From UHGV virus genome UHGV-1509762: 26,449 bases of DNA. The stretch is one strand, 5' to 3'. A program made the position numbers and the translations under genes. The notes under the pieces were generated by a model. That model did not search any database. It saw only the letters and a list, made by a program, of their open reading frames with translations, and had not been told where the DNA came from. Below, in pieces: positions 3,439-26,449 of the stretch. How positions within the stretch are numbered: the first letter of the stretch is position 1; each line of letters begins with the position of its first letter. This DNA comes from a virus.

Positions 3439-3710
3439 GTATTCGTATTGAAATTGGCGAACGTTATGTCGTTACCAGTGACAGCTTTCAGTTTATTCTC
3501 CACGAGAAAAAGAGAGCGGAAAGCGGTAAAAACGCCGGTCAGGAATGGCTGGCGGTGGTTGGTTATTACCCGAAATTAAGCCAGCTCGTTTCCGGCCTGA
3601 TGCATCACGATATTCTGACCGGAAGCGCAAAATCTTTTGCTGATTTAAACGCGCAGGTTGAGCAACTCAGCAAGCGTTGTTCAGAGGCTTTTGGCTCACA
3701 TGGACGTTAA
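3435..3710 (+). CDS. Hypothetical early protein (P2 orf83 position)
   Basis: 91-aa ORF, ATG at 3435 overlapping the previous stop, GGAG RBS upstream. Confidence 0.55.
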   Translation: MSIRIEIGERYVVTSDSFQFILHEKKRAESGKNAGQEWLAVVGYYPKLSQLVSGLMHHDILTGSAKSFADLNAQVEQLSKRCSEAFGSHGR

Positions 3711-5973
3711 AGCCTCCGGGCGTTTTGTCCCTCCGTCAGCATTTGCCGCAGGCACCGGTAAGACGTTTACCGGTGCTTATGCATGGAACGCGCCACGCGA
3801 GGCCGTCGGGCGCGAAAGACCCCTTACACGTGACGAGATGCGTCAGGTGCAAGGTGTTTTATCCACGATTAACCGCCTGCCTTACTTTTTGCGTTCGCTG
3901 TTTACTTCACGCTATGACTACATCCGGCGCAATAAAAGCCCGGTGCACGGGTTTTATTTCCTCACATCCACTTTTCAGCGTCGTTTATGGCCGCGCATTG
4001 AGCGCGTGAATCAGCGCCATGAAATGAACACCGACGCGTCGTTGCTGTTTCTGGCAGAGCGTGACCACTATGCGCGCCTGCCTGGAATGAATGACAAGGA
4101 GCTGAAAAAGTTTGCCGCCCGTATCTCATCGCAGCTTTTCATGATGTATGAGGAACTCTGCGATGCATGGGTTGATGCGCATGGTGAAAAAGAATCGCTG
4201 TTTACGGATGAGGCGCAGGCTCACCTGTATGGTCATGTTGCTGGCGCTGCACGTGCTTTCAATATTTCCCCGCTCTACTGGAAAAAATACAGTAAAGGAC
4301 AGATGACCACGAGGCAGGCATATTCTGCCATTGCCCGTCTGTTTAACGATGAGTGGTGGATTAGTCAGCTTAAAGGCCAGCGTATGCGCTGGCATGAGGC
4401 GTTACTGATTGCTGTCGGGGAGGTCAATAAAGACCGTTCTCCTTATGCCAGTAAACATGCCATTCGTGATGTGCGTGCGCGCCGCCAGGCAAATCTGGAA
4501 TTTCTTAAATCGTGTGACCTTGAAAACAGGGAAACCGGCGAGCGCATCGACCTTATCAGTAAGGTGATGGGCAGTATTTCTAATCCAGAAATTCGCCGGA
4601 TGGAGCTGATGAACACCATTGCCGGTATTGAGCGTTACGCCGCCGCAGAGGGTGATTTGGGGATGTTTATCACGCTGACCGCGCCGTCAAAGTATCACCC
4701 GACACGTCAGGTCGGAAAAGGCGAAAGTAAAACCGTTCAGCTTAATCACGGCTGGAACGATGAGGCATTTAATCCAAAGGATGCGCAGCGTTATCTCTGC
4801 CGTATCTGGAGCCTGATGCGCACGGCATTCAAGGATAATGATTTACAGGTCTACGGTTTGCGTGTCGTCGAGCCACACCACGACGGAACGCCGCACTGGC
4901 ATATGATGCTTTTTTGTCATCCACGCCAGCGTAACCAGATTATCGAAATCATGCGTCGCTATGCGCTCAAAGAGGATGGCGACGAAAGAGGAGCCGCGCG
5001 AAACCGTTTTCAGGAAAAACACCTTAACCGGGGCGGTGCTGCGGGGTATATCGCGAAATACATCTCAAAAAATATCGACGGCTATGCACTGGATGGGCAG
5101 CTCGATAACGATACCGGCAGACCGCTGAAAGATACTGCCGCGGCTGTTACCGCATGGGCGTCAACGTGGCGCATTCCGCAATTTAAAACGGTTGGCCTGC
5201 CGACAATGGGGGCTTACCGTGAACTACGCAAATTGCCTCGCGGCGTCAGCATTGCTGATGAGTTTGACGAGCGCGTCGAGGCTGCACGCGCCGCCGCAGA
5301 CAGTGGTGATTTTGCGCTGTATATCAGCGCGCAGGGTGGGGCAAATGTCCCGCGCGATTGCCAGACTGTCAGGGTTGCCCGTAGCCCGTCGGATGACGTT
5401 AACGAGTACGAGGAAGAAGTCGAGAGAGTGGTCGGCATTTACGCGCCGCATCTCGGCGCGCGTCATATTCATATCACCAGAACGACGGACTGGCGCATTG
5501 TTCCGAAAGTGCCGGTCGTTGAGCCTTTGACTTTAAAAAGCGGCATCGCCGCGCCTCGGAGTCCTGTCAATAACTGTGGAAAACTCACCGGTGGTGATAC
5601 TTCGTTACCGGCTCCCACACCTTCTGAGCACGCCGCAGCAGTGCTTAATCTGGTTGATGACAGTGTTATCGAATGGAGTGACCCGGAGGTCGTGAGGGCG
5701 CTCAGAGGTGCATTAAAACACGGTCGGAGAACGCCAAATCGTCAGCAAAGAAACGGAAGCTCGTTAAAACCACATGAAATTGCACCATCGGCCAGACTGG
5801 CCCGGTCGGAACGAATGCAAATTACCCGTATCCGCGTTGACCTTGCTCAGAACGGTATCAGGCCGCAGCGATGGGAGCTTGAGGCGCTGGCGCGTGGCGC
5901 GACCGTAAATTATGATGGGAAAACGTTTTCATATCCGATTTCTGATGGTTGGGCGGGATTTGAAACAAACTAA
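3700..5973 (+). CDS. A: Rolling-circle replication initiator endonuclease (P2 gpA-like, HUH superfamily)
   Basis: About 760 aa; HUH motif (PHWHMMLF, DNA about 4897-4920) and two-tyrosine active-site motif (GYIAKYISK, DNA about 5044-5070). Start set at the ATG at 3700 (MDVKASGRF, like the P2 A N-terminus as I recall); the track's start at 3658 is a TTG. Confidence 0.92.
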   Translation: MDVKASGRFVPPSAFAAGTGKTFTGAYAWNAPREAVGRERPLTRDEMRQVQGVLSTINRLPYFLRSLFTSRYDYIRRNKSPVHGFYFLTSTFQRRLWPRIERVNQRHEMNTDASLLFLAERDHYARLPGMNDKELKKFAARISSQLFMMYEELCDAWVDAHGEKESLFTDEAQAHLYGHVAGAARAFNISPLYWKKYSKGQMTTRQAYSAIARLFNDEWWISQLKGQRMRWHEALLIAVGEVNKDRSPYASKHAIRDVRARRQANLEFLKSCDLENRETGERIDLISKVMGSISNPEIRRMELMNTIAGIERYAAAEGDLGMFITLTAPSKYHPTRQVGKGESKTVQLNHGWNDEAFNPKDAQRYLCRIWSLMRTAFKDNDLQVYGLRVVEPHHDGTPHWHMMLFCHPRQRNQIIEIMRRYALKEDGDERGAARNRFQEKHLNRGGAAGYIAKYISKNIDGYALDGQLDNDTGRPLKDTAAAVTAWASTWRIPQFKTVGLPTMGAYRELRKLPRGVSIADEFDERVEAARAAADSGDFALYISAQGGANVPRDCQTVRVARSPSDDVNEYEEEVERVVGIYAPHLGARHIHITRTTDWRIVPKVPVVEPLTLKSGIAAPRSPVNNCGKLTGGDTSLPAPTPSEHAAAVLNLVDDSVIEWSDPEVVRALRGALKHGRRTPNRQQRNGSSLKPHEIAPSARLARSERMQITRIRVDLAQNGIRPQRWELEALARGATVNYDGKTFSYPISDGWAGFETN

Positions 5974-5987
5974 CAATAATGATTGAC

Positions 5988-6018
5988 ATGCTTGATTTTG
6001 TATTCACAAATCAAGCAT
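5988..6018. repeat. Perfect 11-bp inverted repeat (ATGCTTGATTT / AAATCAAGCAT, 9-nt spacer) preceded by TTGACA; candidate operator or regulatory hairpin upstream of the methyltransferase
   Basis: Seen directly at 5988-5998 and 6008-6018, with TTGACA at 5983-5988. Lies in the gap between gene A and the methyltransferase start. Confidence 0.6.
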
Positions 6019-6084
6019 CAAGTAAACATCGATGATGAGAAAGAACAATGCTACAATCCCCACAGCATTAGAAGGAGGTTTATC

Positions 6085-7134
6085 TTGATTAAGGTTGTTG
6101 ATTTATTCTGTGGCGCGGGTGGCTTGACTCACGGTCTTCAGAAGTCGGGGCTTAATGTAGTTGCAGGTTATGATATAGATGCAGCCTGTCGATTTGCCTA
6201 TGAGACAAATAATAAATCACTCTTTGTCCAGAAAAGTGTTACAGACATTGAGGACGGCGAATTAGTTAAATATTTCGAAGGAGCGAAGGTTCGAGTTTTG
6301 GCTGGTTGTGCCCCATGCCAACCTTTTTCAAGCTATACCAATAGTGCTAAATTAGGGGTAGTACGTTCAAAAGATAAAAGATGGTCTTTGCTTTATAGCT
6401 TTGCTAAGCAAATTAAATTTGCAAAGCCAGATATTATTACAATGGAAAACGTTCCCCGAGTGGTGAATCATAAGGTTTTTAAGGACTTCATTAAGTCTCT
6501 TAAAAATGATGGCTATTTTGTTTGGTATGGGGTGGTGTTTTGTCCAGACTATGGAATGGCACAAAGTCGTTCAAGATTAGTGTTATTGGCATCAAAATAT
6601 GGAGAAATAGAAATAATTCCACCAACTCATGAGAAGAATGATTATAAAACGGTGCGAGATATAATCGGTAATCTTCCTGAAATTAGTGCCGGTGCTGTTC
6701 ACGCTGGAGATAAACTACATCGCTCTGCATCATTATCTGATATTAATATAAAAAGAATAATGGCATCAAAACCTGGTGGAACATGGCGTGATTGGCCAGA
6801 AGAGCTAAGAGCAAAATGTCATACAAAAGAAAGTGGTTCTACATATACTGCTGTATATGGGAGAATGTGTTGGGATAAACTTGGACCGACAATTACAACT
6901 CAATGTATTGGATATGGGAATGGACGCTTTGGGCACCCTGTCCAAAATAGAGCATTAAGTTTAAGAGAGGCTGCGCTATTACAGTCATTCCCAGAAAAGT
7001 ATGAGTTTTGGCCTGATGATGTAAAAATTGAAATGAGAACAGTTGCGCGTTTAATAGGTAATGCTGTTCCTGTTAGGCTTGGTGAGGTCGTAGGTGAAAC
7101 TATTTTAAAACATTTGTCAGAAATGAATATTTAA
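6085..7134 (+). CDS. DNA (cytosine-5)-methyltransferase
   Basis: C5-MTase motifs in canonical order: motif I LFCGAGG (FxGxGG), motif IV GCAPCQPFS (catalytic PCQ), motif VI ENV (ITMENVPRV), motif VIII QSRSR, motif X GNAVPV. Start set at the TTG at 6085 because a GAAGGAGG RBS lies 6 nt upstream and motif I follows within about 10 residues; the N-terminal extension of the track ORF (from 5983, also TTG) is low-complexity. Confidence 0.9.
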   Translation: MIKVVDLFCGAGGLTHGLQKSGLNVVAGYDIDAACRFAYETNNKSLFVQKSVTDIEDGELVKYFEGAKVRVLAGCAPCQPFSSYTNSAKLGVVRSKDKRWSLLYSFAKQIKFAKPDIITMENVPRVVNHKVFKDFIKSLKNDGYFVWYGVVFCPDYGMAQSRSRLVLLASKYGEIEIIPPTHEKNDYKTVRDIIGNLPEISAGAVHAGDKLHRSASLSDINIKRIMASKPGGTWRDWPEELRAKCHTKESGSTYTAVYGRMCWDKLGPTITTQCIGYGNGRFGHPVQNRALSLREAALLQSFPEKYEFWPDDVKIEMRTVARLIGNAVPVRLGEVVGETILKHLSEMNI

Positions 7135-7146
7135 AACTTATGTCAT

Positions 7147-7170
7147 CCCCCCTGTCAAAAAACAGGGGGG
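7147..7170. terminator. Hairpin between convergent genes (CCCCCCTGT / ACAGGGGGG stem, A-rich loop); likely bidirectional terminator
   Basis: Seen directly: 9-bp GC-rich inverted repeat in the 41-bp gap between the methyltransferase stop (7134) and the stop of the minus-strand ATPase gene (7176). Confidence 0.6.
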
Positions 7171-7175
7171 TATAA

Positions 7176-9134
7176 TTAGATTCCCTCAACTATTTTCATA
7201 ATTCTAGCTGCATCATTCTTTTTGTCTTGATATTCAGCATAGGCTTGTTTTGATTGCACGATTAGGTCATTATATGTCAATATTTTTCCATTGATAGAAA
7301 GTAATTGCATATTTATAAAGTGTTGGTTCTCTTGTAAATATCCAGAGCCAACCAGGAATATTACTTCTATATGCGGTATATTTCCACCTGGGCAATTTTT
7401 AGGGTTATTGGAGAACCATTGTGTCGTTGCCTGTACATATTTATTACCTTGTGCGACTAGGTTCATTATATCTGGGTGCACTTTAGGTCGTTTCATCTCA
7501 ATAATTACATGCTTGCCAGAAACGGTTTTGAAAGCGATATCAATACGAGCACCGCTAGCAGCATCAGGGTTTATCTGTTTTAGTTCCTTGGTCAATGTTT
7601 GCTCCATAACAGATGTGCCTGTGACTCTTTCCCATGAAGGATCCAATAACCATAAATGATCATATAAATACATTTGTACAGCTCTTTCAAGCTGATTTTC
7701 ATCAGTTATTTTTTGGAATTTTTCAATTACTTTAAGGCGTTGCGAAGTAATTTCATAAAACATGCTTGCTTCAATGTCATTGACAGATGCAAATACATCT
7801 TTAAAATTTTCTGATTGAAGGTTGCTTATTTTATCTAATGCATCAAGGTTGTCTTGAATTCTAAGTCTTTCAAAGGCTAATACCGTATTTTTTAATACGG
7901 TTTTTCTTGCTGCTTTTTGTTCTTCCTCATTACCAGAAAAACGGAATGTGTTTACTCGTCCAATTAACTTTTCGGCACTTTCTCTCTCATGTTTTTTGAG
8001 AGAATTCAGCCATTCACTTACTATTGGAGTATTGCTTTTAACTTCATTTACTCCTTTTTCGCGTCTCCATTTATCCCAATCTTTATCGATTAGTTGTAGC
8101 GTTCTTTCCAGAAAACCTTTAAGTACAGGGTATCTTGGATCATTCTGTTGTAGTTTTTGACGAGAAGATGTTGCCATATCAGGCTTTTCGTTATCATCTA
8201 GAAAATCGGCGACTATTTCACCGACCAGATAATTGGTGAATACTTTAGCACTTCCAAATTCTAATAATATGTCCTCCTCAAAAACACGTCCGTGAGAGAT
8301 TACAGTAATGCTGTTGTTAGATATTTCAGGGTCTTTCTTTAACTGTGATGGCTTAACTACACTGCCAATGTACCCACTAACTTTTACATCTTTTCCTTCA
8401 AAGGTAATAGTATTTGGTAATATGTTTTTTTGTGTGATGTTTGTGCAGGATTTTATCCTTTCAGGGTCGGATTCGCCAAATTCCCAAATGAACTCGAGAT
8501 CTGAAAGGAAATCTCTATCTGCCGGTGTAATATCGGTCCCATTAATTTTAACTGTAAAGTTATGGTTGGGGCCAATAATGCTAAATCGACGAGCTATTCG
8601 CTTTCTGAGGTAAGTTTGAGTCCTATCAATGGCTTTTTTTAGTTCAAATAATTTAATTGTAGTGCCGTAAGCAAGATTTTCGGGTATTTCAAGGGAGTCA
8701 GCAATATAGTTTTTTGATTCTTTGATACTTTGCTGTAAATCTTTGACATCTACCTCAAAGGCCTGAGGCTGTTCCCCCTTTTTGTACGAATAAACTTGGA
8801 TTTTATTGGCAAGTGAAAACATGGCAAGCTTACCAATACCTTTTCTGCCCATAACTTGACGTTTTAGATGATCGCTTTTGGCTCTTCCATGTTCCCTGCG
8901 AGCATAACCGACTTTTAGGAACTTATTAATAATGTCATCTTTAGACATGCCATGACCATCATCTTTAATGATGACCTCTCCTTTCTCAACATCAAGTGTA
9001 ATTTCTACATTTTGAGCATCTGCATCCCATGCATTTGATATAATCTCAGTTAGTACCGCGGGAGTATTGGAATAGAGACTCATCCCTAGGTGATTTAGCA
9101 CATTCAAATCAATTTTAATTTCGAAATCTGACAT
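7176..9134 (-). CDS. GHKL-family (MORC/MutL/Hsp90-like) ATPase with a C-terminal PD-(D/E)xK-like nuclease motif; putative ATP-dependent restriction or defence nuclease
   Basis: N-terminus carries the Bergerat-fold motifs: N box EIISNAWDADA (E30, N34, D37), G1 box IKDDGHGM (DxGxG), G2 box GRKGIGK. The C-terminal segment ARIDIAFKTVSGKHVIIEMKRPK has a D ... ExK arrangement (D532, E546, K548; DNA 7491-7541) consistent with a PD-(D/E)xK nuclease core. AAGGAA RBS precedes the ATG at 9134. The gene is AT-rich relative to the phage backbone. Confidence 0.85.
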   Translation of the reverse strand: MSDFEIKIDLNVLNHLGMSLYSNTPAVLTEIISNAWDADAQNVEITLDVEKGEVIIKDDGHGMSKDDIINKFLKVGYARREHGRAKSDHLKRQVMGRKGIGKLAMFSLANKIQVYSYKKGEQPQAFEVDVKDLQQSIKESKNYIADSLEIPENLAYGTTIKLFELKKAIDRTQTYLRKRIARRFSIIGPNHNFTVKINGTDITPADRDFLSDLEFIWEFGESDPERIKSCTNITQKNILPNTITFEGKDVKVSGYIGSVVKPSQLKKDPEISNNSITVISHGRVFEEDILLEFGSAKVFTNYLVGEIVADFLDDNEKPDMATSSRQKLQQNDPRYPVLKGFLERTLQLIDKDWDKWRREKGVNEVKSNTPIVSEWLNSLKKHERESAEKLIGRVNTFRFSGNEEEQKAARKTVLKNTVLAFERLRIQDNLDALDKISNLQSENFKDVFASVNDIEASMFYEITSQRLKVIEKFQKITDENQLERAVQMYLYDHLWLLDPSWERVTGTSVMEQTLTKELKQINPDAASGARIDIAFKTVSGKHVIIEMKRPKVHPDIMNLVAQGNKYVQATTQWFSNNPKNCPGGNIPHIEVIFLVGSGYLQENQHFINMQLLSINGKILTYNDLIVQSKQAYAEYQDKKNDAARIMKIVEGI

Positions 9135-9319
9135 ATAGTCGTTCCTTGCTGAGAGTTCATTTTAGTTTCATGCAATCAATAGGTTAGGCTGAAGATAAAA
9201 CCTTAAGATAACCAAAGCAAGTGTTCATTAGCGGCTTTGTTTCATGACATGATGTGTGTCGCTTTTTGCATGAAACTGCATTTGTTTCTTATATCTGCTC
9301 TTTTTACATACTGCTAGTG

Positions 9320-9341
9320 TTGACATGGCTTTGACATGGCT
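9320..9341. repeat. Perfect tandem duplication TTGACATGGCT x2 near cos
   Basis: Seen directly at 9320-9330 and 9331-9341, about 40 bp from the cos cohesive-end sequence. Function unknown: could be promoter -35-like elements or terminase-binding (cosB-like) repeats. Confidence 0.6.
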
Positions 9342-9377
9342 GTGCAACTGCATTAAAACCGCCCCATGAAGCGGGCG

Positions 9378-9396
9378 GGCGAGGCGGGGAAAGCAC
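9378..9396. other. cos site: P2-type 19-nt cohesive-end sequence GGCGAGGCGGGGAAAGCAC
   Basis: Sequence matches the P2 cohesive end as I recall it. It lies about 170 bp beyond the 3' end of the portal gene Q, the same spacing as in P2. Confidence 0.7.
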
Positions 9397-9538
9397 TGCG
9401 CGCTGGCGGTGGTGCTGATTTTATTTTTTCAGCGTCTCAGCGCGTCGTAATGGCGTTTAGATTGTGCGCCGGGGCGTTGGTGTGTCTGCGGGCTGTTTTG
9501 TGCGGTGGTGAGCGTGTGAGGGCGTGATGACGGGGTGT

Positions 9539-9565: not shown

Positions 9566-10600
9566 TCAGCCGTTGTCAGTGTCCAGTGAGTAGTTTTTAA
9601 AGCGGATGACCTCCTGGCCGAGCCAGCCGTTTATTTCCCGAATCCTGTCCTGTAACGGGATTAGCTCATTGCGGACAAAGACCTTTGCCACTTTCTCAAT
9701 ATCGCCCAGTGACCCGACGTTCTCCGGCTTGCCACCCATCAACTGAAAGGGGATGCGGTGTGCGTCCAGCAGGTCAGCGGCGCTGGCTTTTTTGATATTA
9801 AAAAAATCGTCCTTCGTCGCCACTTCACTGAGCGGGATAATTTTAATGCCGTCGGCTTTCCCCTGCGGGGCATAGAGAAACAGGTTTTTAAAGTTGTTGC
9901 GGCCTTTCGACTTCACCATGTTTTCGCGAAGCATTTCGATATCGTTGCGATCCTGCACGGCATCGGTAACGTACATGATGTATCCGGCATGTGCGCCGTT
10001 TTCGTAATACTTGCGGCGGAACAGCGTGGCCGACTCATTCAGCCAGGCAGAGTTAAGGGCGCTGAGATATTCCGGCAGGCCGTACAGCTCCTGATTAATA
10101 TCCGGCTCCAGCAGGTGAAACACGGAACCGGGCGTGAAAGGTGTCGGCTCGTTGAAGGACGGCACCCACCAGTAAACATCCTCTTCCACACCACGGCGGG
10201 TATATTTTGCCGGTGAGGTTTCCAGTCTGATGACCTTACCGGTGGTGCTGTAACGCTTTTCCAGAAACGCATTACCGAACACCAGAAAATCCAGCACAAA
10301 GCGGCTGAAATCCTGTTGCGAAAGCCACGGATGCGGGATAAATGTTGAGGCCAGAATATTGCGTTTGACGTAAATCGGTGAGCTGTGATGCACGGCAGCA
10401 CGCAGGCTTTTTGCCAGACCGGTAAAGCTGACCGGCGGCTCATACCATCTGCCGTTACTGATGCATTCGACGTAATCCAGAATGTCACGGCGGTCGAGTA
10501 CCGGCACCGGCTCGCCAAAGGTGAATGCTTCCATTTTCGGGGCGCTGGCGGTGATTGTTTTTGCCGCTGGCTGCGGTGTTTTCCCTTCTTTCTTGCTCAT
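9566..10600 (-). CDS. Q: Portal protein (P2 gpQ-like)
   Basis: 344 aa, same length as P2 Q; N-terminus MSKKEGKTPQPAAK...FTFGEPVPVLDRRDILDYVEC recognisable; ATGA overlap with the stop of P. Confidence 0.92.
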   Translation of the reverse strand: MSKKEGKTPQPAAKTITASAPKMEAFTFGEPVPVLDRRDILDYVECISNGRWYEPPVSFTGLAKSLRAAVHHSSPIYVKRNILASTFIPHPWLSQQDFSRFVLDFLVFGNAFLEKRYSTTGKVIRLETSPAKYTRRGVEEDVYWWVPSFNEPTPFTPGSVFHLLEPDINQELYGLPEYLSALNSAWLNESATLFRRKYYENGAHAGYIMYVTDAVQDRNDIEMLRENMVKSKGRNNFKNLFLYAPQGKADGIKIIPLSEVATKDDFFNIKKASAADLLDAHRIPFQLMGGKPENVGSLGDIEKVAKVFVRNELIPLQDRIREINGWLGQEVIRFKNYSLDTDNG

Positions 10601-23998: not shown

Positions 23999-24526
23999 AT
24001 GCAGCATTTAAAAAATATTACGGCGGGTAATCCAAAAACGGTTGAACAATATCAATTGACAAAAGACTTTGATGTTGTCTGGTTTTTTTCAGAAGATGGT
24101 AAGAACTGGTACGAAGAACAAAAGTATTTTGCTGATGACACGCTAAAAATAGCGTACGACAAAGATAATATCATCCGCTATGTGGAAAAGGATGTGACAG
24201 CTATCAGACCGGATGGATTAAGTGTTGTTGAAGTGGCGGATATTACTGCTAACCGACGGGCGGACATTTCAGGGAACTGGATGTTTAAGGACGGCAAAGT
24301 GATTAAACGCATTTATACGGCAGAGGAATTGCTGCAGCAGGCAGAAAACCGGAAAGCCAGACTTCTTGCAGATGCTGAATCCGTGATTTTGCCGCTGGAG
24401 CGCGCGGTCAGACTGAACATGGCAACAGATGAGGAGCGTAGCCGACTGGATGCATGGGAGCGTTACAGCGTTCTGGTCAGTCGTGTGGATCCTGCAAATC
24501 CTGAATGGCCGGAAATGCCGCAATAA
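23999..24526 (+). CDS. G: Tail fibre assembly chaperone (P2 gpG-like)
   Basis: 175 aa immediately downstream of H; same length and position as P2 G. Confidence 0.85.
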
Positions 24527-24747
24527 GTTGTATGATCTCTGGAGTGAGCAAACATATCTATGGCACAGAGTAAAGCCTAATCTGACAGGCCGCTCTGTGT
24601 CTGGAGTAGATTTTAGTAAAGCATTATTTTATTAGTGCAAATTCTAATCAATACATTTTATGTATATGATATCCTGCAGACTTTAATGACTTGGTTTAGG
24701 CTAACCAGATAACACTGAAGGAATATTTTTGATAATTAAGGTGCGGT

Positions 24748-25341
24748 ATGTTTACTAAGCGACGATTAAAAAATATTAACTGGGAGGCAAGTTCAGTGAT
24801 TCTTGCTATGGTTCTCTTTGTTGGAAATATATTTTATACAAATCATCGTGATGATATAACTATGGAGGCTGAGAGGGACAGTATCAGAACAATGTTTGCA
24901 TATGAAATCGCTAATAACCATCGCGCTCTCACTTTTCTTGATAAAACGAGATATATTGGCTTTGACGAAAATTCGGAGCATTTTGTTGGCGAGCCTTTTG
25001 CCATTAATGTCAAATCATTAGGGGGGCCTCGCTTACAGATTGCATTAAACCAGACTGATAAAGTGTTTAAATCCTACTTCAGCGAATTAAGTAAGCTTGA
25101 TAAAGAGGATGTTACTCTTCTTATGGACTATTACCATGAGCAAAGCATCCTGCTGGAGCGTGTAAAATCTACGTTACAGAAGATGAAAAGTGGTAATGAT
25201 ATTAAAGTTGATATTGATGGTTACTTATTAGAAGAACACTTCATGAATGAGCTTAATCTTTCTAATATTTTGCTTAAACGCTATAGCCATTTGTTGTCAC
25301 AACACGCCAAAGAACATAAAACAAAAGATTTACATAATTGA
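24748..25341 (+). CDS. Hypothetical membrane-anchored protein of unknown function (cargo gene at the G-downstream hotspot)
   Basis: 197-aa ORF in a visibly AT-rich island; TAAGGTG RBS just upstream of the ATG; N-terminal basic stretch then one hydrophobic helix (SSVILAMVLFVGNIFY), remainder charged. No family recognised. Confidence 0.6.
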   Translation: MFTKRRLKNINWEASSVILAMVLFVGNIFYTNHRDDITMEAERDSIRTMFAYEIANNHRALTFLDKTRYIGFDENSEHFVGEPFAINVKSLGGPRLQIALNQTDKVFKSYFSELSKLDKEDVTLLMDYYHEQSILLERVKSTLQKMKSGNDIKVDIDGYLLEEHFMNELNLSNILLKRYSHLLSQHAKEHKTKDLHN

Positions 25342-25546
25342 TAATCTGCTAATGGTTATTCATGGGGTAACTATGTTTTATATGTAATCCAACTCAGATG
25401 AATTATTGATTCTGGATAATAACCGCAGAGCGGTATATACCCTGACAGGCAAATGTCCGCTTCTTGTTCAAAGCAGACCGTCAGATTTGATAACTTTTGG
25501 GCTATGTAAATTGTCAGTCGGAAAATGAGTGAGTTCAAATCAGGAC

Positions 25547-25593: not shown

Positions 25594-26449
25594 GGATTTG
25601 CCCCTATATTTCCAGACATCTGTTATCACTTAACCCATTACAAGCCCGCTGCCGCAGATATTCCCGTGGCGAGCGATAACCCAGCGCACTATGCGGATGC
25701 CATTCGTTATAATGCTCGAACGCCTCTGCAAGGTTCTTTGCTGCCGTTAACCCGTCTGGTTTGGGCATGATACTGATGTAGTCACGCTTTATCGTTTTCA
25801 CGAAGCTCTCTGCTATTCCGTTACTCTCCGGACTCCGCACCGCCGTGTTCTTCGGTTCAAGTCCCAACATCCGGGCGAACTGGCGTGTTTCATTAGCCCG
25901 GTAGCATGAACCATTATCCGTCAGCCACTCCAGTGGAGACGACGGAAGATCGTTGCCGAAGCGGCGTTCCACCGCTCCCAGCATGACGTCCTGTACTGTT
26001 TCACTGTTGAAGCCGCCGGTAGTGACCGCCCAGTGCAGTGCCTCACGATCACAGCAGTCCAGCGCGAACGTGACACGCAGTCTCTCTCCGTTATCACAGC
26101 AGAACTCGAACCCGTCAGAGCACCATCGCTGATTGCTTTCTTTCACGGCCACTCTGCCTGTATGTGCCCGTTTCGATGGCGGTACAGCAGGTTTTCGCTC
26201 AAGCAACAGCGCATTCTGGCGCATGATCCGGTAAACACGTTTGGCATTGATCGCAGGCATACCATCAAGTTCTGTTTGTCTGCGAAGCAGCGCCCATACC
26301 CGACGATAACCATACGTGGGCAGCTCTCCGATAACATGGTGTATACGGAGAAGCACATCCGTATCATCAGTGTGACGACTGCGGCGGCCATCCATCCAGT
26401 CATCGGTTCGTCTGAGAATGACGTGCAACTGCGCACGCGACACCCGGAG
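25594..26449 (-). mobile_element. IS2 insertion sequence (IS3 family), partial, inverted orientation, truncated by the window end
   Basis: The terminal sequence TGGATTTGCCCCTATATTTCCAGACATCTGTTATCACTTAA at 25594-25634 is the reverse complement of the IS2 right inverted repeat as I recall it; followed by the IS2 orfB (InsD) coding sequence on the minus strand. Confidence 0.9.
25604..26449 (-). CDS. insD: IS2 transposase OrfB (InsD), 5' end outside the window
   Basis: 279-aa track ORF is recognisable as E. coli IS2 InsD over its whole length ([29 protein letters not shown] ... [33 protein letters not shown]); the true N-terminus and orfA lie beyond 26449. Confidence 0.92.

What the first reader, a model, noticed from the sequence alone, without database searches (positions are those of the whole stretch)
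6085..7134. Complete C5-cytosine methyltransferase with probable TTG start; could be the cognate modification enzyme or a phage-borne anti-restriction methylase
Motifs I, IV (PCQ), VI (ENV), VIII (QxRxR) and X (GNAVPV) are all present, so the enzyme is probably active. A strong GAAGGAGG Shine-Dalgarno sits 6 nt before a TTG at 6085 and motif I follows almost immediately, so the annotated N-terminal extension from 5983 is probably not translated. The gene lies directly downstream of the early operon in the same orientation and could be co-expressed early, which is when a phage would want its DNA modified. No Vsr-like mismatch endonuclease gene accompanies it.
Basis: partly seen in the sequence, partly recalled or inferred. 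Interest (0 to 1): 0.55.

Follow-up and report, generated by a model that had tools for sequence, protein, structure and literature searches.

The report
Prophage restriction-modification methylase with self-targeted promoter
The gene is an intact DNA cytosine methylase that protects the cell from the restriction nuclease encoded next to it, an ordinary two-gene defence cassette carried by a P2-like prophage; its one unusual feature is that its probable target sequence sits in its own promoter.

Summary
Window 6085-7134 (+) encodes a complete 349-aa C5-cytosine methyltransferase. Translation starts at TTG 6085. RefSeq and GenBank use that start, and in two orthologues an in-frame stop lies 1-4 codons upstream of the conserved TTG.

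It is not an orphan anti-restriction methylase. It converges on a 652-aa GHKL-ATPase/PD-(D/E)xK nuclease (7176-9134, -) of the BbrUII/HgiDII restriction-enzyme family. Every relative at 64% identity or more that I examined keeps this partner. Together they form a 3.4-kb low-GC restriction-modification cassette in the known gpA-gpQ defence hotspot of P2-like phages. The cassette is present in 30 of 5426 complete E. coli genomes and in phage PhiR44_1.

The target is a TCGA-core hexamer, but which one is unresolved. The nuclease family name implies GTCGAC. The closest characterised methylase I could tie in by sequence (KcmA of Klebsiella) makes MT(5mC)GAK, as is reported for Serratia DISARM DrmMII.

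New here: an MTCGAK hexamer lies exactly 18 nt upstream of the -10 hexamer in 16 of 89 relatives' promoters, including this one (ATCGAT, 6028-6033). Control motifs give 0-1. This predicts feedback through methylation of its own promoter.

It is a new member of a known kind, of modest interest.

The parts
5974..9340 (.). Low-GC cargo cassette (restriction-modification module) inserted in the gpA-gpQ hotspot of a P2-like prophage.
   Evidence: GC is 0.34-0.39 here against 0.52-0.60 in the flanks. The 5974-6084 spacer is found only in the 30 E. coli genomes that hold the cassette. Other P2-like phages align again only from about 9325-9343. The hotspot itself is described in PMC9122126.
5988..6018 (.). 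Perfect 11-bp inverted repeat (ATGCTTGATTT N9 AAATCAAGCAT) just after the gpA stop. Role unknown.
   Evidence: Found. The RNA fold is -13 kcal/mol with z = -1.55, which is not exceptional, and there is no U-tract. It is not conserved in relatives.
6028..6033 (+). ATCGAT, an MTCGAK-class hexamer occupying the -35 position of the methylase promoter. Predicted self-methylation or binding site.
   Evidence: It lies exactly 18 nt upstream of the -10 hexamer. The same arrangement occurs in 16 of 89 loci of this methylase subfamily against 0-1 for 12 control motif classes. Only the hexamer is conserved; the flanks and spacer vary.
6049..6057 (+). Extended -10 element TGCTACAAT of the methylase's own promoter.
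   Evidence: TGyTACAAT is conserved in Escherichia, Pantoea, Serratia and Vibrio cholerae loci. This is a promoter inference; no transcript data are available.
6071..6078 (+). Shine-Dalgarno sequence GAAGGAGG, 6 nt before the start codon.
   Evidence: Sequence. The GGAGG core is conserved in the three closest of the five orthologous loci and weakened to GAGGAGGG / GGGAGGG in Pantoea and Serratia.
6085..7134 (+). C5-cytosine DNA methyltransferase, 349 aa, TTG start. The target-recognition domain spans about aa 170-285.
   Evidence: The target-recognition domain is more conserved than the catalytic core across the subfamily (61% against 53%).
7147..7170 (.). GC-rich hairpin (CCCCCCTGT N6 ACAGGGGGG) in the 41-nt gap between the convergent genes. 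Candidate bidirectional terminator.
   Evidence: -19 kcal/mol, z = -2.5. There is no canonical U-tract on either strand.
7176..9134 (-). 652-aa restriction endonuclease: N-terminal GHKL ATPase, a middle domain, and a C-terminal PD-(D/E)xK nuclease of the Shedu (SduA_C) type. It belongs to the BbrUII/HgiDII family, also called paraMORC3.
   Evidence: NF050001 scores 751 bits against a cut-off of 550. PADLOC REase_II matches at 2e-91. HATPase_c_3 matches at 2e-25. E30, N34, D37, D58, G60, G62, G96-K102, D532, E546 and K548 are invariant in 20 homologues. SduA_C is detected in 6 of 20 homologues. The fold matches are Hsp90/TRAP1 for the N-terminal and middle domains, and EcoT38I and the B. cereus Shedu nuclease, weakly, for the C-terminal domain.
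9192..9220 (-). Putative promoter of the nuclease gene (TTGCTT N17 TATCTT).
   Evidence: Read. It is conserved in the three closest relatives only. Low confidence; inference.
3658..5973 (+). Left flank: P2 replication gene A (gpA). This is the mechanical ORF; the equivalent annotated CDS in PhiR44_1 starts later.
   Evidence: Pfam Phage_GPA, 2e-122; annotation.
9566..10600 (-). Right flank: portal protein gpQ.
   Evidence: Pfam Phage_portal; annotation.

Best explanation
The gene encodes the modification enzyme of a two-gene restriction-modification cassette carried as cargo in the gpA-gpQ defence hotspot of a P2-like prophage of E. coli.

Shown by the analysis:
- The enzyme is a complete C5-cytosine methyltransferase translated from TTG 6085.
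- It is convergent with, and evolutionarily locked to, a GHKL-ATPase/PD-(D/E)xK nuclease of the BbrUII/HgiDII family.
- Both genes sit in a low-GC module with its own conserved regulatory DNA.

Inferred:
- The methylase is transcribed from its own sigma-70 promoter (extended -10 at 6049-6057).
- It puts 5-methylcytosine on the inner C of a TCGA-core hexamer in host and prophage DNA.
- This blocks cutting by the partner nuclease, which attacks unmethylated incoming phage or plasmid DNA.
- The nuclease's conserved ATPase motifs suggest that ATP drives or gates it.

For the target I favour MTCGAK (about 0.55) over GTCGAC (about 0.3).

A further inference, at about 0.4: because an MTCGAK site sits in the -35 position of the methylase promoter, the enzyme methylates or binds its own promoter. 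This would give feedback that sets methylase level and timing relative to the nuclease in a system that has no controller protein. The weak TTG start would work in the same direction.
For: Identity and activity:
-.

Start codon:
-.

Partner identity:
- NF050001 equivalog at 751 bits against a cut-off of 550.
- PADLOC REase_II.
- Intact ATPase and nuclease residues.

Linkage:
- All seven loci whose methylase is at least 64% identical carry a 652-666-aa HATPase_c_3 neighbour. These come from Escherichia-like contigs, Pantoea, Serratia and V. cholerae, in convergent or co-directional order.

Cassette and hotspot:
-.

Target:
- M.HgiDII is reported as a GTCGAC 5mC methylase (PMC5867850) and M.BbrUII as recognising GTCGAC (PMC5005818).
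- The published KcmA cloning primers match the Raoultella locus L023 at 20/20 and 19/20 bases.
- The L023 protein's 90% cluster is dominated by K. pneumoniae proteins.
- KcmA and Serratia DISARM DrmMII make MT(5mC)GAK.
- The methylase here is 55% identical to the L023 protein, and 59% in the target-recognition domain.
- That domain is more conserved than the core across 89 sequences.

Promoter site:
- MTCGAK-N18-TANNNT occurs in 16 of 89 loci, against 0-1 for the controls and 0 for GTCGAC.
- 16 of the 18 MTCGAK occurrences in the upstream regions are in this register.
Against: - There are no methylome, transcript or cleavage data for this system.
- I could not obtain the M.HgiDII or M.BbrUII sequences, so membership of the GTCGAC group is untested at sequence level.
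- Both characterised MTCGAK enzymes belong to DISARM loci, not to GHKL-nuclease pairs, whereas both characterised GHKL-nuclease pairs are GTCGAC.
- At 53-60% identity only 12 of 80 relatives have a GHKL neighbour, so linkage is a property of the closer clade only.
- KcmA and DrmMII methylate only 34-67% of their sites. That would be dangerous next to a true type II nuclease of the same specificity.
- The promoter and the feedback are inferred from sequence alone. The consensus promoter scan did not list this promoter. The 16 loci share ancestry, so they are not 16 independent events.
- Site-avoidance statistics do not discriminate between the targets.
Confidence: 0.85

Rival explanations
1. 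It is an orphan, phage-borne anti-restriction or epigenetic methylase. It would be expressed with the early operon to protect phage DNA from host restriction systems, and would be functionally unrelated to the neighbouring gene.
For: It has the same orientation as the early operon and lies only 111 nt after gpA. No terminator was detected in between. P2/186-like phages do carry such enzymes: the Pantoea prophage L085 has a Dam-like methylase and a second C5 methylase inside its early operon.
Against: It is always paired with the GHKL nuclease in its clade (7 of 7). It has its own conserved promoter and belongs to the low-GC cargo rather than the phage backbone. In the Pantoea prophage the genuine early-operon methylases coexist with a separate hotspot methylase-nuclease pair.
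Confidence: 0.05
2. The neighbour works as a stand-alone Shedu-type (paraMORC3) defence nuclease that does not read methylation, as described for V. cholerae VcSduA. On this view the methylase is an independent passenger and the pair is not a true restriction-modification system.
For: The nuclease has the same GHKL plus SduA_C layout as VcSduA, which defends without a methylase (PMC12137116). SduA_C is detected in 6 of 20 homologues. The B. cereus Shedu nuclease is among the top fold matches. A 2008 survey noted that a subset of paraMORC3 genes occur alone (PMC2292703).
Against: It scores well above the cut-off of the BbrUII/HgiDII equivalog model. Methylase and nuclease co-occur strictly and diverge in parallel in this clade. 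The named family members are reported as classical GTCGAC systems whose methylases block cleavage.
Confidence: 0.07
3. The methylase is the modification module of a larger system such as DISARM (DrmMII) or Druantia (DruM).
For: The best PADLOC match is a DrmMII model (1e-90), followed by DruM. Relatives at about 55% identity sit next to DrmD/DrmA-type SNF2 helicases.
Against: No helicase, DrmA/B/C or Druantia gene lies in the window. The cassette holds only two genes between gpA and gpQ.
Confidence: 0.01

Closest known systems
HgiDII (Herpetosiphon) and BbrUII (Bifidobacterium breve UCC2003) type II restriction-modification systems, reported as GTCGAC with a 5mC methylase
   Same: A two-gene system: a C5 methylase plus a roughly 650-aa nuclease with an N-terminal GHKL ATPase. 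The nuclease here passes the NCBIfam equivalog model named after them. The GHKL domain of R.HgiDII was noted in PMC2441816.
   Different: The cassette is carried by a P2-like prophage of E. coli. The target is not verified and may be MTCGAK rather than GTCGAC. I could not compare sequences with the two named methylases directly.
KcmA (M.KpnK2044IV) of K. pneumoniae and DrmMII of Serratia sp. SCBI class 1 DISARM, both MT(5mC)GAK
   Same: KcmA, through its near-identical L023 orthologue, is in the same methylase subfamily: 55% identity, 59% in the target-recognition domain. DrmMII was not compared by sequence; the link is that the best PADLOC match is a DrmMII model. The motif they methylate is the one found in this gene's promoter.
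   Different: They serve DISARM loci (SNF2 helicase DrmD/DrmA and an N6-adenine methylase), not a GHKL nuclease. They methylate their sites only partially.
paraMORC3 / Shedu type I-D (for example V. cholerae VcSduA)
   Same: The partner nuclease has the same architecture, a GHKL ATPase plus a SduA_C-type PD-(D/E)xK nuclease. GenBank record PV340563 labels it 'ParaMORC3'.
   Different: VcSduA acts alone. Here the nuclease is tied to a methylase, which implies self/non-self discrimination by methylation.
Restriction-modification systems regulated by methylation of their own promoter (CfrBI is the example I recall from my own knowledge; not checked in the library)
   Same: The enzyme's probable target lies inside the -35 region of the methylase promoter, and there is no controller protein.
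   Different: Here this is only predicted. The arrangement is shared by methylase genes serving three different effector modules.
Defence cargo of the P2 gpA-gpQ hotspot (old/tin of P2, retrons, and others)
   Same: Same insertion site, small size, low GC and own promoters (PMC9122126).
   Different: The cargo here is a type II-like restriction-modification pair. It occurs in 30 of 5426 complete E. coli genomes.

Membership tests
C5-cytosine DNA methyltransferases (Pfam PF00145 / TIGR00675) | Ordered motifs I (FxGxG), IV (PCQ, catalytic Cys), VI (ENV), VIII (QxRxR) and X (GNAVP), with a variable target-recognition domain between motifs VIII and IX. | tested here: met
   End-to-end Pfam match at 9e-56. 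TIGR00675 is above its cut-off. All motifs are invariant in 21 homologues.
Type II restriction-modification system of the BbrUII/HgiDII family | The adjacent nuclease belongs to the family (GHKL ATPase plus C-terminal nuclease). | tested here: met
   NF050001 equivalog at 751 bits against a cut-off of 550, covering residues 4-651 over model positions 1-658 of 659. Catalytic residues are invariant.
Type II restriction-modification system of the BbrUII/HgiDII family | Methylase and nuclease are inherited together. | tested here: met
   7 of 7 loci with a methylase at least 64% identical have the partner. At 53-60% identity only 12 of 80 do.
Type II restriction-modification system of the BbrUII/HgiDII family | The methylase is an orthologue of M.HgiDII / M.BbrUII, and both enzymes act on GTCGAC. 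| not testable with these tools
   The sequences CAA38941 and ABE95799 could not be retrieved. The only link is one relative labelled 'HgiDII' by an automatic annotation (P0087). The promoter-site evidence points to MTCGAK instead. Settling this needs a methylome or digestion assay.
Orphan / anti-restriction phage methylase | No cognate nuclease, and embedded in a phage operon without its own regulation. | tested here: not met
   A nuclease is adjacent and co-inherited. The gene has its own conserved promoter and belongs to the cargo module.
DISARM (DrmMII) / Druantia (DruM) | Presence of DrmA/B/C with or without DrmD, or of DruA-E helicase genes, next to the methylase. | tested here: not met
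   Only two genes lie between gpA and gpQ. The high PADLOC DrmMII score reflects the shared methylase subfamily.
Shedu (the partner nuclease) | An SduA_C (DUF4263) nuclease domain. | tested here: inconclusive
   The window protein itself has no Pfam hit in its C-terminal domain even at E = 10. However, 6 of 20 close homologues match SduA_C, best 2.6e-6, and the B. cereus Shedu nuclease is the second fold match at probability 0.85, E = 0.02.
Dcm-Vsr pair | A very-short-patch repair endonuclease gene next to the methylase. | tested here: not met
   No Vsr-like sequence in the window. Vsr is present in 22 of the 88 relatives' loci, 19 of them with DISARM-type or GHKL partners.

The most novel reading that the evidence does not exclude
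The methylase promoter carries the enzyme's own target (MTCGAK) precisely over its -35 element, and this arrangement is conserved wherever this methylase subfamily travels with its own promoter. It is seen in GHKL-nuclease restriction-modification pairs, in DISARM loci and in GmrSD_N+HEPN systems.

This would be a portable, controller-free epigenetic feedback switch. Unmethylated incoming DNA would express the methylase at one level, and the methylated promoter would reset it. The switch would time modification against restriction when the prophage or island enters a new host.

If correct, it would also mean that the nuclease family now named after GTCGAC enzymes includes MTCGAK-specific, ATP-gated Shedu-type nucleases that read methylation.
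Probability: 0.35. Interest if true: 0.55.

Novelty: new member of a known kind. Interest (0 to 1): 0.33.

Why it matters
As a gene call this is routine. Identical proteins are already named in RefSeq, and restriction-modification cargo in the P2 hotspot is expected.

Three points give it some value:
- The two standard routes to a predicted target disagree. The nuclease family name gives GTCGAC, and the closest characterised methylases give MTCGAK. Automatic target assignments for this widespread family may therefore be wrong, and one digestion experiment would settle it.
- The methylase subfamily is a shared modification module for three unrelated effector sets. This bears on how defence systems swap parts.
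- The conserved target site in the -35 position is a testable model for how a two-gene system without a controller protein establishes itself safely after transfer by a temperate phage.

Tried and rejected
- **Site avoidance as a read-out of the target.** GTCGAC occurs 4 times against 5.8 expected. MTCGAK occurs 7 times against 21.8 expected. The MTCGAK deficit is the same in four other P2-like genomes whatever their cargo, and is partly a general TCGA deficit. The test does not discriminate.
- **Full-length fold search of the nuclease.** It returned only Hsp90/TRAP1-type GHKL proteins.
- **The C-terminal domain modelled alone.** It gave only weak matches, none at E of 0.001 or better.
- **Pfam on the window's own C-terminal and middle domains.** Nothing was found.
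- **PDB sequence search.** It matched only the GHKL part of the nuclease. For the methylase it returned only generic C5 methylases such as DNMT1 and HaeIII.
- **Retrieving M.HgiDII / M.BbrUII sequences, or an E. coli methylome for this motif.** None was held.
- **A paper on phage PhiR44_1.** None was found.
- **The consensus promoter scan.** It did not list the methylase promoter, because its -35 is non-canonical.
- **The 11-bp inverted repeat at 5988-6018 as a terminator.** The fold is not exceptional and there is no U-tract.
- **Linkage of the methylase to the GHKL nuclease across the whole subfamily.** Rejected: only 12 of 80 distant relatives have it.

Full report
**Context**

The window is a P2-like prophage of E. 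coli. From left to right it holds:
- an integrase (186-1196, -);
- the immunity repressor;
- the early operon ending in replication gene A (to 5973);
- portal, terminase, capsid, lysis, baseplate and tail-fibre genes.

Window 65-25594 aligns at 97.8% identity to positions 1-25532 of Escherichia phage PhiR44_1 (PV340563).

Between gpA and the portal gene gpQ lies a low-GC block, 0.34-0.39 against 0.52-0.60 in the flanks. This position is the published defence hotspot of P2-like phages (PMC9122126).

**The observation**

Window 6085-7134 (+) encodes a 349-aa protein that matches the C5-cytosine methylase model end to end (PF00145, 9e-56; TIGR00675 above its cut-off). Motifs I, IV (PCQ), VI (ENV), VIII (QxRxR) and X (GNAVPV) are present and invariant in 21 homologues. 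GAAGGAGG lies 6 nt before TTG 6085.

The TTG start is settled as far as sequence can settle it:
- RefSeq and GenBank both use it.
- Most homologues start 1-2 residues before the same IKVVDLFCGAGG block.
- TTG and the Shine-Dalgarno sequence are conserved in five orthologous loci.
- In the Pantoea and Serratia loci an in-frame stop lies 4 and 1 codons upstream of TTG.
- The V. cholerae orthologue uses GTG, so a weak, non-ATG start is typical of this clade.

The longer ORF from 5983 is a mechanical artefact. That stretch contains promoter elements.

**The neighbour**

Convergent with the methylase, after a 41-nt gap that holds a GC-rich hairpin, is a 652-aa ORF (7176-9134, -). The evidence on what it is:
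- It has an N-terminal GHKL ATPase domain (HATPase_c_3, 2e-25).
- It scores 751 bits, against a cut-off of 550, on the NCBIfam equivalog model 'BbrUII/HgiDII family restriction enzyme', and matches PADLOC REase_II.
- In 20 homologues at 44-100% identity, the ATP-binding residues (E30, N34, D37, D58xGxG, G96-K102) and a C-terminal D532...E546-x-K548 nuclease triad are invariant.
- Six of the 20 match Pfam SduA_C, the Shedu nuclease domain.
- A model of the C-terminal domain weakly resembles EcoT38I and the B. cereus Shedu nuclease.
- The N-terminal two-thirds of the full-length model resembles Hsp90-type GHKL proteins.

This is the paraMORC3 architecture predicted in 2008 to act in restriction-modification systems (PMC2292703). 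R.HgiDII was noted to have it (PMC2441816). It was recently shown to work alone as a Shedu variant in V. cholerae (PMC12137116). The PhiR44_1 record labels the two genes 'Dcm protein' and 'ParaMORC3'.

**Are the two genes a unit?**

Yes, within this clade.
- All seven loci whose methylase is at least 64% identical carry a 652-666-aa HATPase_c_3 neighbour. They come from metagenomic enterobacterial contigs, Pantoea, Serratia and V. cholerae. Four are visibly inside P2/186-like prophages and two lie next to a V. cholerae integrase.
- More than 20 methylase hits and nuclease hits share contig lengths, and their identities fall together.
- The whole cassette, including the 111-nt spacer after gpA, is present in 30 of 5426 complete E. 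coli genomes.

This excludes the orphan anti-restriction reading. The Pantoea prophage makes the contrast plain. It has a Dam-like methylase and a second C5 methylase inside its early operon, and separately the methylase-nuclease pair in the hotspot.

**The wider methylase subfamily**

At 53-60% identity the methylase subfamily is shared between different effector modules. Partner gene(s) detected in each of 80 genomes (some loci carry more than one type):
- 12 have a GHKL nuclease.
- About 34 have a GmrSD_N (DUF262) protein plus a HEPN_MAE_28990 protein.
- About 23 have a DrmD/DrmA-type SNF2 helicase, often with Vsr, which is the class 1 DISARM arrangement.

Another P2-like phage, P24B2, carries a disrupted copy of the methylase next to the GmrSD_N+HEPN pair in the same hotspot.

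The target-recognition domain is more conserved than the catalytic core, 61% against 53%, with 27 invariant positions out of 116. This argues that the subfamily recognises the same or very similar sequences.

**Which sequence?**

Two lines of evidence disagree.
- **GTCGAC.** The nuclease family is named after HgiDII and BbrUII. M.HgiDII is reported as a GTCGAC 5mC methylase and M.BbrUII as recognising GTCGAC.
- **MTCGAK.** The only characterised methylase I could tie in by sequence is KcmA of K. pneumoniae.
  - Its published cloning primers match the Raoultella locus L023 at 20/20 and 19/20 bases.
  - The L023 protein's 90% cluster is dominated by K. pneumoniae proteins.
  - KcmA makes MT(5mC)GAK, and so does DrmMII of a Serratia class 1 DISARM system.
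  - The window protein is 55% identical to the L023 protein, and 59% in the target-recognition domain.

Both candidate targets share a TCGA core. I could not fetch M.HgiDII or M.BbrUII to compare them. Site-avoidance statistics do not help, because MTCGAK is about equally depleted in all P2-like genomes whatever their cargo.

Upstream of the methylase, TGCTACAAT (an extended -10 element, 6049-6057) and ATCGAT (6028-6033) are conserved from E. coli to V. cholerae, while the spacer between them diverges.

Across all 89 loci, an MTCGAK hexamer (ATCGAT, CTCGAT or CTCGAG) lies exactly 18 nt upstream of a TANNNT hexamer in 16 loci. These include loci with DISARM and GmrSD_N+HEPN partners. Twelve control motif classes give 0-1 loci, and GTCGAC gives 0. 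Of the 18 MTCGAK occurrences in all upstream regions, 16 are in this register.

Only the hexamer is conserved, not its flanks. As a -35 element it is poor (TCGATG), so something other than sigma-70 contact seems to constrain it.

The simplest reading is that the enzyme recognises its own promoter. That favours MTCGAK as the target here. It also predicts feedback by self-methylation or binding, which would be useful in a two-gene system with no controller protein. This is inference; the loci share ancestry and there are no expression data.

**Mechanism proposed**

The prophage expresses the methylase from its own promoter, translated weakly from TTG. Read-through from the early operon is possible, since no terminator was detected after gpA. 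The nuclease is probably expressed from a separate promoter (9192-9220, low confidence).

The methylase marks host and prophage DNA. The ATP-binding nuclease cuts unmarked incoming DNA. The pair therefore acts as lysogen-borne defence, and probably also as an addiction module.

**Verdict**

The finding is real and correctly read in its main points. It is an already-annotated, ordinary kind of system: a new member of the HgiDII-type restriction-modification family in a known phage hotspot. The unresolved target and the conserved self-target in the promoter are the only parts worth an experiment.

Noticed in passing
window 25595-26449: Similarity to phage PhiR44_1 stops at 25594. An IS-type transposase ORF (rve / rve_3 / HTH_21, 25604-26443, minus strand) sits where the phage has the region just upstream of the tail-sheath gene FI. 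This prophage copy is therefore interrupted and may be defective.
   Followed up: partly
window 24500-25500: A second low-GC block (0.35-0.37) lies after the tail-fibre assembly gene. It holds a 197-aa ORF (24748-25341) and an 82-aa ORF with no Pfam match. This is probably cargo in a second variable locus of P2-like phages.
   Followed up: no
loci L003-L082, L088-L089, L091: One C5-methylase subfamily, with a highly conserved target-recognition domain, serves three unrelated effector sets. These are GHKL nucleases, GmrSD_N + HEPN_MAE_28990 pairs, and DISARM-type SNF2 helicases with or without Vsr. On the methylase tree the partner types are intermixed, which suggests frequent module swapping.
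   Followed up: partly
L091 / L095 (Peduovirus P24B2, record 29078-31979): Another P2-like phage carries a 56%-identical methylase, split into two pieces, in the same hotspot. It lies next to a GmrSD_N protein and a HEPN_MAE_28990 protein.
   Followed up: partly
window and four P2-like genomes (L092-L095): GATC is extremely depleted: 17-22 sites against about 93-118 expected from dinucleotide-preserving shuffles (z about -8 to -10). MTCGAK is depleted about fourfold by the same measure, and about twofold against a third-order Markov expectation, whatever cargo the phage carries.
   Followed up: partly
L085 (Pantoea sp. B623 prophage) 1098-2983: The early operon of this 186/P2-like prophage contains a Dam-like (MethyltransfD12) methylase and a second C5 methylase directly upstream of gpA. 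These are in addition to the hotspot methylase-nuclease pair.
   Followed up: no
L086 / L087 (V. cholerae) 5001-9075: Here the methylase and the GHKL nuclease are co-directional and overlap. They are followed by a convergent HNH protein with a weak ScoMcrA_N match, all next to a prophage integrase. A possible methylation-dependent nuclease beside a 5mC restriction-modification pair is odd.
   Followed up: no
window 5988-6018: A perfect 11-bp inverted repeat lies between the gpA stop and the methylase promoter. It belongs to the cassette but is not conserved in relatives. It does not look like a terminator, and its role is unknown.
   Followed up: partly
window 9228-9353 (-) and 9366-9527 (+): Two small ORFs (41 and 53 aa) are annotated as hypothetical proteins in PhiR44_1. 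They lie between the nuclease gene and the portal gene, where similarity to other P2-like phages resumes. The sequences look non-coding or low in complexity.
   Followed up: no
window 8085-8090 and 8493-8498: Two further MTCGAK sites (ATCGAT and CTCGAG) lie inside the nuclease gene. Three of the window's seven sites therefore fall in the 3.4-kb cassette.
   Followed up: no
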